The notes below the pieces were generated by a model. The model was given only the letters and a program-made list of their open reading frames with translations. It was not told the origin of the DNA and ran no database searches. This document shows positions 4,690 to 19,133 of a stretch of DNA of 20,000 bases, piece by piece. The DNA comes from Sanchytrium tribonematis. Lineage: Eukaryota. A program made the position numbers and the translations under genes. The DNA lies in assembly GCA_018985235.1 (NCBI GenBank), contig JADGIG010000006.1, positions 47,687 through 67,686 of the forward strand. The letters run 5' to 3'. Numbering within the stretch: position 1 is the first letter of the stretch; every line of letters starts with the position of its first letter.

Positions 4690-5177
4690 TCACATAGCAT
4701 ACTTTCTAGTCCATTCTTTTGCAGTCATTTCATATCTAAATTATTAAATATTACCTAGCCCTGTCAGTTTTGTAAATGTGTGCAATTTCTGGTACAAGTG
4801 GGTCGTCTGGATTTGGGTCAGTTAGCATACTGCAAATACTCAACAAGACTTTGCTGATAGTAAGCGCAGGACTCCACTGATCTCGCAAAATATCCAGGCA
4901 AATACTTCCATTGCTATTGATATTTGGGTGGTAAATACGAGTATTAAAGTTGACCTTTGGAGGTTTAAACGGATAGTCTGTAGGAAAGTGGATAGTGAGA
5001 AAAAAGACGCCTCCCGCATATGGACTGTCTGATGGTCCCTAAATAAGTCAAAAATACCATAATAGTGGCGGTCCAGCTAAAGAGATCATCTGGATTAGTT
5101 GGTCCTGCTGAGCAGCTGCTTGGTGGATCTTTTCCTAAGTCTTGCAGTTCTTTTGTGATTCTTTTAATCGCACTCAT
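4690..5177 (-). CDS. UBC4: Ubiquitin-conjugating enzyme E2, UBC4/UBE2D family; 3 exons (5177-5058, 5038-4755, 4735-4690), 149 aa
   Basis: Removing two 19-nt GT-AG introns gives [14 protein letters not shown]...[35 protein letters not shown]...[58 protein letters not shown](R)[14 protein letters not shown]. Confidence 0.97.
4736..4754 (-). other. 19-nt spliceosomal intron (UBC4 intron 2, phase 2)
   Basis: GTAATATTTAATAATTTAG; removal restores the conserved C-terminus [15 protein letters not shown]. Confidence 0.95.
5039..5057 (-). other. 19-nt spliceosomal intron (UBC4 intron 1, phase 0)
   Basis: GTATTTTTGACTTATTTAG; removal restores the conserved TIM-GP frame. Confidence 0.95.
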
Positions 5178-5371
5178 GGATTATTGTTTCGAGCGGAGTG
5201 AATTCTGGAAGAAAAAAGAGAAACATTATCAATTATTGTGTCAGATATTACTGCTTTTGTTTTTTAAACTGAATTAGCATGCAACTTTTGCTGTTAACAA
5301 AAAAGTGAGTTACGTCAGTAAAACACTGCAACACTAAACAGCAAACTTAAAAGGCAGACGAATTTTATTAT

Positions 5372-5728
5372 TTAAGCAATGTCGTCTGGGACCTTAATGG
5401 GTTGCGCATCGAGATGAATTGAATCTTTTTTCATAAGTGCAAACATCGAGACACATTTCAAAATCAGTAAGGTTATTGTCATAAACATGCCAAACCCACT
5501 TGCCATTTGAAAAATCAGATATAAAATATCTAGCGGACATGTGATAACCAGTAGGGCTCCGCTCAACGAATAGTAATCTTTAAATGTTAAATAATAAAAT
5601 AATAACACCGGCAAATTGTAGCTTGGGAAACTAGAGTGTAGGCCACCTATCAATGAGCATCCTATCAAGGTATAGAGTATGGTTTGTTTGTCAATAGATT
5701 CAATATGATTCTGCATTTGACTCTGCAT
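5372..5728 (-). CDS. Small multi-pass membrane protein, possibly AGTRAP-like
   Basis: 118 aa with 3-4 hydrophobic segments. The pattern 'SYNLP..L...LDILYL...F.MFMTI.LLILK' resembles the AGTRAP family from memory; family call tentative. Confidence 0.6.
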   Translation of the reverse strand: MQSQMQNHIESIDKQTILYTLIGCSLIGGLHSSFPSYNLPVLLFYYLTFKDYYSLSGALLVITCPLDILYLIFQMASGFGMFMTITLLILKCVSMFALMKKDSIHLDAQPIKVPDDIA

Positions 5729-5770
5729 GTGTCGAAAAATATTGGGGAAAAAGAAACAAGACCAGATTAT

Positions 5771-6136
5771 TTATTTGAATTGGTCAATGATGAATTGAGA
5801 TGCTTCAGTCTCTGCTCCCCATTTCTTAACAACAACGCACGAAGCTCTAACGACTTTTCTAGCATTTCCCTCACGGTCGTATTTGCACAAACCAGCCATT
5901 TCTCCTAATTTTTTGCCTTCAGGATATTTGACCATTCTGATTTGACCTTCCGTACATAGTGCTTCAATTAGTTGAGCGTACTCTTTGCTGTCACATTCTT
6001 CACTTAATACGCACAAAACTGCTTGACGTCTGTCCAATGCTTTGACACATTCTCTTAGTCCTCTTGCTAACCCATCATGGTACAATGCGGTTCTTAAAAC
6101 TGTTTGTAACGCTAATTCGATATCCATACCCGTCAT
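5771..6136 (-). CDS. RPS12: 40S ribosomal protein S12 (eS12)
   Basis: '[24 protein letters not shown]', '[29 protein letters not shown]'. Confidence 0.98.
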
Positions 6137-16772: not shown

Positions 16773-16816
16773 GGGGTGTGGTAAATGGAAAATGCTTTTG
16801 TAATTTGGTAGAAAAT

Positions 16817-17470
16817 TTATTTCTTTGTTCGGCGATGACATTTTGAAGTATTCGATGGCTGCGAGTTATATACCGGGCTTTTTGGCTTTGAGTGTTCTTT
16901 AGTTTCCGAATGCTCTTTGGTTTTTGATACCTTTGGTTCGTCCTTGGCTTTACTTTTTGGCTTTGGTGGGGCCGGGTTTGGTGGAGTATAGGCAGCGTTA
17001 TCATCAGGTGCGTGTTCAACACCAGGTCTCCCTAGTACGTTGCCTGGAGGTTTGTAATTGCATATAATAGGTTTGTTTTGACCCGATTGATAACAACTCA
17101 TAGTTTTTGTATCTTTCCAAACCATTTGACTATAATGCCCTTGGCATTTGCTCATGTCAAAACTAGTCATCAAAGAGTTGAAGTCGCAACTACTTTTTTC
17201 GGCGAAAAACATATTTGCAGAGCCAGCTCCATCACTCCCACTTGCAAGGTTTTCACCAGTTTTAGCCAAGTCGGGCACTTTGTCACATTGACCATGTTGA
17301 AATAGTACTGGGTGGCATTGAATTTGCGCTTTTTCCATTTCATCGTCCCACGTCAAAGGTGCAGAGCCTACTTCTGCTCTAGCTTTATTGTGAATTGCAA
17401 GAATTTGAGCTTTTTGATCAGAGGTGATTGCGTTTCCATATTGCGCATAAGCGAAGTTTGTAAACAACAT
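16817..17470 (-). CDS. CAP/SCP/PR-1 family secreted protein with Pro/Lys-rich tail
   Basis: ILAIHNKARAEVG..PLTWD, GENLA, GHYSQMVWKDT, ICNYKPPGN. Confidence 0.95.
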   Translation of the reverse strand: MLFTNFAYAQYGNAITSDQKAQILAIHNKARAEVGSAPLTWDDEMEKAQIQCHPVLFQHGQCDKVPDLAKTGENLASGSDGAGSANMFFAEKSSCDFNSLMTSFDMSKCQGHYSQMVWKDTKTMSCYQSGQNKPIICNYKPPGNVLGRPGVEHAPDDNAAYTPPNPAPPKPKSKAKDEPKVSKTKEHSETKEHSKPKSPVYNSQPSNTSKCHRRTKK

Positions 17471-17746
17471 AAGTGGCGCTTCGCAACACTGTTAAATACG
17501 TTGCAAGTATATTCAATAAACTTTCAATTGGTTCAAAATTTAATCAGCAAGCAGTTTTGATTGCCCTTATATAATAATATCTGTGACTAATATAATTTCC
17601 TTAGACAAAGAATTTGAATCTGTGGCCATGTAATCATGTTCGATTTGTAAGGAACTAATTGTTTTGAAAATTTATCGGGTATATCCTGTTTTAAAAATTA
17701 TGTCACGCCGCTTTTCCTTTAGTTTGCCGAGCTAAATATTAAAACA

Positions 17747-19133
17747 ATGCAACATTTCGTTCGTAGGTCTTTAAATTTGATGGAAAAGCCTATGGCTGTC
17801 ACTGCAGAACAAGCAGTATCAGTAATTAAAAACAACGATAGGGTTTATGTTCATTCGGTCGCTGCGACTCCTGTCAAGCTTTTGACGGCATTATCTAAAA
17901 GAAATGAATTGAAAAGTGTCGAACTAATGCATATACATTTGGAAAACGACAATCCATGTTCCCACCCATCCTTAAAGGACAGTTTCCAATCTTTAAACTT
18001 ATTTGTTGGTAAACACGAAAGAAAACATGTAAAAAGTGGCAGGAATGTTTTTATTCCAATTTTTCTGAGTGAAATACCTAAGCTGATGCGATCAGGAAGG
18101 TTGGCACCGAATGTTGCATTGATTCAAGTATCCCCACCAGACAAACATGGGTATTGTTCTCTAGGAACAGAAGTCACTTGTGCATTTCCAGCTGTAGAAT
18201 GCGCTCACACGATTATTGCTCAGGTAAACAAACATGTTCCTCGTACGCATGGTACCTCAATGATTCCATACTCGAAAATTGATTATGTTTTCGAAAATGA
18301 CGAACCTTTGCCGACTACAAAAGTGGCCGAACCAGGAGACGCAGAATTGAAAATCGGACATCATATAGCAAATCTCATTAAAGATGGAAGCACCTTGCAA
18401 ATGGGGATTGGAGGAATTCCAAATGCTGTGCTGCGAAGTTTAAAGCATCATAAAAATCTGGGAGTGCACACTGAAATGTTCCAGGATGATCTTATCCCAC
18501 TAATTGAAAAAGGAATTGTCAATAATTCTTGCAAAAAATTTTTAAAAGGAAAGACTGTCACCAGTTTTGTGATGGGATCTCAAACTTTATATGACTTTGT
18601 GGATGACAACCCAATGGTTCAATTTCTCGACTCTTCCATCACCAACGACCCGGTCATAATTGCCAGAAACCCGCAGGTACTTTTATATCATGTAGGTCAT
18701 AGCTATAAATTCCGCAGTTGAAATTGATTTAACTGGACAAGTCTGTGCAGATTCTATTGGTAAGAATATCATCAGCAGCGTTGGAGGCCAGGTTGACTTT
18801 GAAAGAGGTGCAGCAATTGCAGAGGCTGGAGTCCCAATTATTACTATGACAAGTACTACAAAGAAAGGTGAATCAAAAATTGTGCCATTTTTAAAAGATG
18901 GTGCTGGTGTTGTAACTACTAGAAGTCACGTACATTGGGTCGTGACAGAATATGGTGCTATCAATCTATGGGGATTGAACACTCAGCAACGGGCCTCTTC
19001 ATTGATTAAAATAGCACATCCAGATCATCGAGAATTTTTATACAAAGAAGCCTATAAAAACTTCAATGTTGATGTTGAACACTTACCAATGCCACCATTG
19101 CCTCACAAAATGACTAGTGGTAAAATAAATTAA
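17747..19133 (+). CDS. Family I CoA-transferase (acetyl-CoA hydrolase/4-hydroxybutyrate CoA-transferase type), 2 exons (17747-18676, 18696-19133), 455 aa
   Basis: SPPDKHGYCSLG, LQMGIGGIPNAV, GVHTEMF (catalytic Glu); after splicing NPQ|VIAINSAVEIDLTGQVCADSIG...VGGQVDFERGA; VVTEYG, LIKIAHPDHRE. Confidence 0.95.
18677..18695 (+). other. 19-nt spliceosomal intron (phase 0)
   Basis: GTACTTTTATATCATGTAG; removal restores the conserved AINSAVEIDLTGQV motif. Confidence 0.95.

What the first reader, a model, noticed from the sequence alone, without database searches (positions are those of the whole stretch)
4736..18695. All six reconstructable introns are exactly 19 nt: a fixed-length micro-intron splicing system
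Seen: six GT-AG introns in five unrelated genes (4736-4754, 5039-5057, 7363-7381, 8048-8066, 11250-11268, 18677-18695), each exactly 19 nt and covering all three phases. Four of them restore highly conserved protein sequence (UBC4 twice, RhoGDI, CoA-transferase). Known: introns this short are described from heterotrich ciliates (Stentor, 15-16 nt) and chlorarachniophyte nucleomorphs (about 18-21 nt); typical fungal introns are far longer. Inference: the gene content looks fungal/opisthokont, so this may be an independent origin of ultra-short, length-measured introns. 19 is not a multiple of 3, so retention always frameshifts. Gene finders with a minimum intron of 20 nt or more would miss all of them.
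Basis: partly seen in the sequence, partly recalled or inferred. Interest (0 to 1): 0.92.

Follow-up and report, generated by a model that had tools for sequence, protein, structure and literature searches.

The report
Nineteen-base introns in an early fungus
Five genes of a compact-genome, early-branching fungus are each interrupted by AT-rich 19-base segments with standard intron ends and a fixed internal A, likely removed by the ordinary splicing machinery (not yet seen in RNA), which would make them shorter than any fungal or animal introns I found reported.

Summary
Observation confirmed. All six segments are 19 nt, GT-AG, and removing them reopens the reading frame. Five rejoin conserved protein; the sixth lies in an orphan gene. 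'Exactly 19' holds for this window but not for the lineage: read-through tails of close relatives' proteins imply 19, 20 (or 17) and 22 nt. Two gene trees place the organism in a long-stemmed clade of early-diverging fungi. It is probably a sanchytrid (about 70%; inferred from GC, compactness and branch length, not shown). No RNA run was listed, so splicing is inferred. Best reading: ordinary U2-type introns shrunk close to a mechanical minimum, an independent fungal origin of a known kind (Stentor 15-16, Mikrocytos 16-17, nucleomorph 18-21 nt). My searches found no report of fungal introns under about 25 nt. The scan earlier noted longer fixed-length introns in Rozella (25-32 nt, unchecked), not in this lineage.

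The parts
4690..5177 (-). UBC4/UBE2D-type ubiquitin-conjugating enzyme gene, 3 exons, 149 aa spliced
4736..4754 (-). 19-nt intron, UBC4 intron 2, phase 2
5039..5057 (-). 19-nt intron, UBC4 intron 1, phase 0
   Evidence: UQ_con 35|36
7145..7733 (-). orphan gene with a hydrophobic N-terminus, 2 exons, 189 aa spliced; no Pfam match
7363..7381 (-). 19-nt intron, phase 1; weakest case (frame and motif only); 18 of 19 identical to 5039-5057
7966..8578 (-). Rho GDP-dissociation inhibitor gene, 2 exons, 197 aa spliced
8048..8066 (-). 19-nt intron, phase 2
   Evidence: Rho_GDI 171|173
10257..11706 (+). DUF5092 gene, 2 exons
11250..11268 (+). 19-nt intron, phase 0; three relatives (P0198-P0200) break off at the same site
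17747..19133 (+). acetyl-CoA hydrolase / 4-hydroxybutyrate CoA-transferase gene, 2 exons
18677..18695 (+). 19-nt intron, phase 0; absent from three relatives (P0078-P0080)
19142..20000 (-). SF3a60/PRP9 (U2 snRNP subunit) gene, 3' part; evidence that the genome keeps U2 snRNP protein
   Evidence: PF11931, E 1.1e-51

Best explanation
The six 19-nt GT-AG segments interrupt five genes of an early-diverging fungus and are likely ordinary U2-type spliceosomal introns shrunk close to a mechanical minimum. Shown: length, ends, frame restoration, the invariant letters G1 T2 A3, T12, A14, T15, T17 A18 G19, and a U2 snRNP protein gene (PRP9) in the same window. Inferred: U1/U6 read a donor reduced to GTA. 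U2 pairs loosely with positions 9-15 and bulges A14 as the branch nucleotide, closing a 14-nt lariat loop. The acceptor is the AG ending 5 nt after the branch A, with no polypyrimidine tract. The 3' geometry appears fixed across the lineage, while the donor-to-branch spacer differs by a few bases between species (19-22 nt introns). The narrow length would then be the sum of two tight distance constraints, not a new machine.
For: Frame and Pfam register are restored. Five invariant interior columns, 0 of 100,000 shuffles. Against the canonical U2 register the -4 A is kept in 5 of 6, the -2 U in 6 of 6 and the branch A in 6 of 6. Stentor has the same -6 branch A (10th of 15, 11th of 16; PMC9505925 passages). 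Relatives break off at homologous or other conserved sites, and the next exon decodes in a shifted frame. P0199 gives 19 nt with A forced at -6 (score 62 against at most 16). P0078 gives 22 nt (168 against at most 55). P0200 gives 20 nt (or 17 with one extra residue, both 50). P0080 fits 20 nt with T-8, A-6 and T-5 forced, if its stop is the acceptor. In DNA run X1, 16 of 17 differences are synonymous and 0 of 17 fall in an intron, so the genes look functional.
Against: No spliced transcript or lariat was seen. The branch A is assigned from conservation in six introns only. The -1 A of the canonical branch motif is kept in just 1 of 6 and the -3 C in 3 of 6. No snRNA gene lies in the window and no whole genome was available, so the spliceosome could not be inspected. 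2 of 6 relative tails could not be decoded (P0198, P0079), and P0080 is conditional. Intron 7363-7381 lacks homolog support. Leave-one-out motif scores are low for some introns (1.8-13.8), and 14 of the other 2,077 GT..AG candidates exceed the lowest.
Confidence: 0.85

Rival explanations
1. Pure molecular calliper: the spliceosome excises any AU-rich GT-AG stretch of one exact length without a defined branch site, as proposed for the Bigelowiella nucleomorph.
For: 6 of 6 introns have one length; the donor is only GTA; the calliper proposal exists for 18-21 nt nucleomorph introns (PMC6009652 passages).
Against: T12, A14 and T15 are invariant, whereas nucleomorph introns have no discernible branch A. 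The window holds 111 GT..AG 19-mers on both strands, of which only six break genes. Relatives vary 19-22 nt and are compatible with A at -6.
Confidence: 0.06
2. Non-spliceosomal removal or bypass: an IRE1/tRNA-ligase-type cut, programmed frameshifting, or RNA editing.
For: The length is near that of short unconventional introns (recalled: HAC1/XBP1 type, about 20-26 nt); splicing was not observed.
Against: All six have GT-AG ends and a shared branch-like motif. No junction folds better than shuffles (z -0.86 to +0.85). They occur in unrelated housekeeping genes in all three phases.
Confidence: 0.03
3. The segments are real introns but are spliced poorly, so most transcripts retain them, as in Encephalitozoon.
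For: Short E. cuniculi introns are spliced under 20% on average (PMC6349667 passages); Mikrocytos 16-nt introns 63%.
Against: Retention would truncate UBC4 and RhoGDI. The introns are spread along the genes rather than next to the start codon. B. natans 18-21 nt introns are mostly spliced at 90-100%. This reading is compatible with the best explanation and differs only in efficiency.
Confidence: 0.15
4. Assembly errors or pseudogenising insertions.
For: None specific.
Against: Contigs of run X1 carry all six with no gaps (X1 may be the source, so this is not independent). Relatives at 65-69% identity break at the same DUF5092 site. 16 of 17 differences are synonymous.
Confidence: 0.01

Closest known systems
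Stentor coeruleus 15-16 nt introns (PMC9505925, passages read)
   Same: GT-AG, AU-rich, near-uniform length, putative branch A 6 nt from the 3' end, canonical U2 recognition proposed
   Different: Here 19 nt with a 14-nt rather than 10-nt lariat loop, an added invariant T at -8, a fungus rather than a ciliate, and no RNA confirmation
Mikrocytos mackini 16-17 nt introns (PMC10245619, passages read)
   Same: Sequence-conserved, uniform, ultra-short introns at low density; 217 of 224 have one length
   Different: Rhizarian parasite with a very reduced spliceosome; shorter; spliceosome state here is unknown
Chlorarachniophyte nucleomorph 18-21 nt introns (PMC6009652, passages read)
   Same: Same size range, GT-AG, AU bias
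   Different: Those are dense (3.1 per gene) and lack a discernible branch A. Here there are 6 introns in about 19 genes (0.37 per kb of coding sequence), with an invariant A, in a main nucleus
Microsporidian introns, Encephalitozoon cuniculi (PMC6349667 and PMC2483917, passages read)
   Same: Fungus-related, short, conserved branch motif
   Different: About 25 nt, strongly 5'-biased, mostly in ribosomal protein genes, poorly spliced. Here shorter and internal, and the window's RPS19 and RPS12 frames are uninterrupted
Myxobolid and Dicyema introns (PMC13644364, parts 1-2 of 3 read)
   Same: Opisthokonts, donor reduced to GTa, U2-type mechanism argued
   Different: Lowest median 22 nt, a range of lengths, and weak A residues whose distance from the AG grows with length; here the A looks anchored to the 3' end
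Yarrowia lipolytica fused branch-acceptor signal (PMC2483917, passages read)
   Same: Branch motif a fixed 2 nt before the AG and no polypyrimidine tract, which puts the branch A at -6 as here
   Different: Yarrowia introns are long and carry a strict branch consensus

Membership tests
U2-type spliceosomal introns | GT donor and YAG acceptor | tested here: met
   6 of 6 GTA...TAG
U2-type spliceosomal introns | Removal restores a conserved reading frame | tested here: met
   5 of 6 by homology, 6 of 6 by frame
U2-type spliceosomal introns | Branch-site motif able to pair with U2, with a bulged A | tested here: inconclusive
   Invariant T12-x-A14-T15 fits the register in part; branching was not observed and the organism's U2 was not seen
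U2-type spliceosomal introns | Excised from RNA through a lariat | not testable with these tools
   No RNA holder listed
U2-type spliceosomal introns | Genome encodes a major spliceosome | tested here: inconclusive
   PRP9/SF3a60 present; no snRNA in the window; no genome held
Ultra-short uniform-length intron systems (Stentor, Mikrocytos, nucleomorph) | Nearly all introns of a genome fall within a range of 1-4 nt below about 22 nt | tested here: inconclusive
   6 of 6 in one 20-kb window are 19 nt; relatives 19-22 nt; genome-wide distribution unavailable
IRE1-type unconventional introns | Stem-loops at both splice sites, non-GT-AG ends (recalled) | tested here: not met
   No junction folds better than shuffles; all GT-AG
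Early-diverging Fungi | Proteins nest among zoosporic/zygomycete fungi | tested here: met
   CoA-transferase inside a fungal clade at 100/100; named DUF5092 hits are chytrids, Mucoromycota, Allomyces, Rozella and Hyaloraphidium
Sanchytriomycota | Compact genome of about 35% GC, fast-evolving | tested here: met
   GC 0.32-0.40 per kb; 81% coding; RPS19 at most 55% identical to any named hit; long stems; description in PMC8371127. These traits are not diagnostic.
Sanchytriomycota | Sister to Blastocladiomycota | tested here: inconclusive
   DUF5092 tree unresolved; grouping with Allomyces not rejected (p-AU 0.058) but not found. A quick tree leaned towards chytrids. The CoA tree had no blastoclad and put the clade beside chytrids
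Sanchytriomycota | Close match to a named sanchytrid sequence or rRNA | not tested
   No close relative carried an organism name in the listings; no rRNA in the window

The most novel reading that the evidence does not exclude
A whole fungal lineage, probably the phylum Sanchytriomycota, has shrunk all its introns to 19-22 nt, each species locked on its own length. These would be the shortest genome-wide introns among opisthokonts. They are still being gained and lost, and they were missed because the published proteomes were called without introns, so some genes counted as truncated or lost are intact.
Probability: 0.45. Interest if true: 0.75.

Novelty: new member of a known kind. Interest (0 to 1): 0.6.

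Why it matters
It would add an independent origin of sub-20-nt introns, the first inside Fungi that my searches could find, in the kingdom where spliceosome genetics and structure are best known. Sequence changes in its branching factors could then be read against yeast structures. Convergence with Stentor on a branch A at -6 suggests a hard limit on branch-to-acceptor distance, while the donor-to-branch distance (10 against 14 nt) is what varies. That makes the lower bound on intron length testable. In practice, public protein records for this lineage are truncated read-through products (P0077, P0197-P0200, P0078-P0080). If the lineage is the sanchytrids, whose proteomes were predicted as ORFs straight from contigs (PMC8371127 methods), their gene inventories deserve re-annotation.

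Tried and rejected
No whole genome was held. No RNA holder was listed; one DNA run, X1, holds the stretch and may be its source, which is no evidence on expression. The cluster-member look-up could not be made. Scans for relatives' DNA found none: metagenome contigs with the RPS19 alignment (0 of 368 pattern matches confirmed) and a CoA-transferase motif (0); prokaryote genomes (0; 0 of 26); viral contigs (0 of 62). Relatives' introns are therefore inferred from protein read-through, not read from DNA. The representative-protein search meant to test the orphan gene never ran. The atlas gave nothing for DUF5092 and only the family for RhoGDI. Rfam: 0 matches. Rejected: hidden 18/21-nt in-frame introns of this motif (0 found); longer frame-restoring GT-AG alternatives (43-64 nt at four of six sites), which would remove conserved residues at the three conserved sites where they occur, though the 49- and 55-nt options in the orphan gene are excluded only by motif fit; hairpin-guided splicing; a nucleomorph origin (fungal gene content). 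Trees left out many unnamed hits: 52 and 24 of 87 DUF5092 proteins, and 26 of the 120 listed CoA-transferases. Literature: 'sanchytrid'+'intron' 2 papers; 'sanchytri'+'intron' 9 papers, none on nuclear intron structure by listing; in the two read by passage, 'intron' occurs only in a reference title. 'shortest introns'+fungi+chytrid 0; zoosporic/aphelid terms 0; ultra-short/tiny-intron terms 15 listed, none on such a fungus by listing; Amoeboaphelidium+introns 7, none relevant by listing. The library lacks most subscription journals, and I opened no supplements, so a brief earlier mention cannot be excluded.
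Full report
Observation. All six segments are present at the stated coordinates, each 19 nt, starting GT, ending AG and holding only 2-5 G or C. Left in, each drives its gene into a premature stop. Taken out, the frames give a 149-aa UBC4, a 189-aa orphan, a 197-aa RhoGDI and full-length DUF5092 and CoA-transferase proteins. I scanned 25 ORF and exon pieces against Pfam and 18 matched. 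The exon pieces abut in the models: UQ_con 35 then 36; Rho_GDI 171 then 173 with a split codon between; AcetylCoA_hyd_C 33 then 35; the DUF5092 C-terminal part (109-144) lies only downstream of 11268. UBC4 exon 2 spans residues 39-131/132 of solved E2 chains, leaving the tail that exon 3 supplies. Five introns thus have homology support. The one at 7363-7381 rests on frame and motif alone.

Nine of 19 columns are invariant: G1 T2 A3, T12, A14, T15, T17 A18 G19; A10 is kept in 5 of 6. Five invariant interior columns were reached in 0 of 100,000 shuffles of the interiors (0.45 expected). Read against the canonical branch helix (motifs from PMC2483917, and PMC9505925), A14 is the bulged A, with the -2 U in 6 of 6, the -4 A in 5 of 6, the -3 C in 3 of 6 and the -1 A in only 1 of 6. 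The branch A is thus 6 nt from the 3' end. Stentor has the same geometry (10th of 15, 11th of 16), and the Yarrowia branch-AG distance of 2 nt implies it too. The motif occurs 6 times at 19 nt against 0.55 expected; this figure is partly circular because the motif came from the six. It occurs 0 times at 18 and 20-26 nt, which answers the worry that in-frame 18- or 21-nt introns were invisible. A weight matrix ranks the six at 10.4-15.4 and the best of the other 2,077 GT..AG candidates at 5.1; left-one-out scores fall to 1.8-13.8. No junction folds better than shuffles.

The organism. The window is 32-40% GC per kb, about 81% coding, with 6 introns in about 19 genes. RPS19 has two unnamed relatives at 85% and 81% and nothing else above 55% among 76 hits. 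The CoA-transferase has three unnamed relatives at 72-75%, then chytrids at 52-59%; the four form a clade (100/100) inside early-diverging fungi (100/100), beside chytrids and Gonapodya (96/95), with no blastoclad sampled. DUF5092 has three relatives at 79-82% over the searched region; they form a long-stemmed clade whose position among chytrids, Mucoromycota and Allomyces is unresolved. A quick tree leaned towards chytrids (SH-aLRT 90). Grouping with Allomyces is not rejected (p-AU 0.058), and among 52 proteins a short motif is most like that of Allomyces. Fungal placement is shown by two genes. Sanchytriomycota is my inference (about 70%), from its published description as fast-evolving, about 35% GC, 10-11 Mb and sister to Blastocladiomycota (PMC8371127, passages and section 9 read). 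One P0198 and one P0002 record list the same longest-contig length (95,406), which hints at shared gene neighbourhood in a relative.

Relatives. No DNA of relatives could be fetched. Their database proteins, however, were called without introns and run on through the intron in a shifted frame. I decoded six such tails, with the window's own as a control that returned 19 nt. P0199 gives 19 nt at the same DUF5092 site with A forced at -6. P0200 gives 20 nt there (or 17 with one extra residue; equal score). P0078 gives 22 nt at a different CoA-transferase site. P0080 fits 20 nt at that site if its stop codon is the acceptor. P0198 and P0079 stop too early to decode (P0198 would be 15 nt only if its stop were the acceptor, which cannot be tested). 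So tiny introns are a lineage trait, but 19 is not lineage-wide. The three CoA-transferase relatives lack the window's intron at 18677, and the window lacks theirs, so introns have turned over within the group; the direction cannot be told.

Function of the genes. DNA run X1, which may be the source, covers the window with 17 differences, none in an intron. 16 of 17 are synonymous, including one in the DUF5092 downstream exon. No RNA holder was listed.

Mechanism. Shown: ends, length, frame, invariant positions, and a PRP9/SF3a60 gene in the window. Inferred: major-spliceosome splicing by intron definition, with a donor reduced to GTA, a loose U2 helix on positions 9-15, branching at A14 to close a 14-nt loop, and the acceptor taken as the AG ending 5 nt on, without a polypyrimidine tract. 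Uniform length would follow from a fixed branch-to-acceptor distance plus a donor-to-branch spacer held near its minimum by deletion bias in a compact genome. Confidence 0.85. Rivals are a motif-free calliper (0.06), non-spliceosomal removal (0.03) and artefact (0.01); poor splicing efficiency (0.15) is compatible with the main reading.

Comparison and novelty. It works like Stentor (15-16 nt), Mikrocytos (16-17 nt) and chlorarachniophyte nucleomorph introns (18-21 nt, no discernible branch A). Among opisthokonts the shortest I found reported are myxobolids (median 22 nt) and Encephalitozoon (about 25 nt). A survey of 644 fungal genomes gave no passage on such introns for my terms (PMC8476143, passages). 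Searches for sanchytrid or zoosporic-fungus introns found no report; subscription papers and supplements were not seen. Earlier notes of this scan describe 25-32 nt introns in Rozella and about 36-38 nt in Neolecta (unchecked) and nothing on this lineage. Verdict: a real feature and a new member of a known kind, likely an unreported independent origin with the shortest introns in Fungi. Interest 0.6, held back by the small sample, the lack of RNA and the unconfirmed taxon.

Noticed in passing
window 4998-5821: In run X1 this 824-nt piece has depth 774 against 179 and 134 on its flanks, and a 59-nt contig (depth 419) joins its end to its start. That suggests a head-to-tail amplification or circle of about 4-5 copies, covering UBC4 exon 1 with its intron and upstream region, ORF 5372-5728 and the RPS12 3' end. 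It could be a collapsed repeat or an amplification artefact.
   Followed up: no
window 5039-5057 and 7363-7381: Two introns in unrelated genes are 18 of 19 identical. Chance under the shared consensus is 5-21% depending on the model, so copying is not shown.
   Followed up: partly
window 18677-18695: The intron absent from relatives sits in an AG|GT context at both ends (a proto-splice site), a candidate recent gain.
   Followed up: partly
window 19319-19913: 12 of the 17 differences between X1 and the window cluster in PRP9, all synonymous: a divergent haplotype block.
   Followed up: no
window 1770-1786 (+): A 17-nt GT..AG stretch matching the intron motif upstream of GAR1; a possible UTR intron, but about 0.5 are expected by chance per length.
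   Followed up: no
window 13094-14881 (-): Intronless kinesin that looks kinesin-2-like by recalled motifs; not tested. It would bear on flagellar reduction in this lineage.
   Followed up: no
window 2536-3180, 5372-5728, 6817-7131, 11710-12249, 14904-16841: Open frames without a Pfam match; ORF 14904-16841 overlaps the 3' end of the CAP-domain gene by 25 nt.
   Followed up: no
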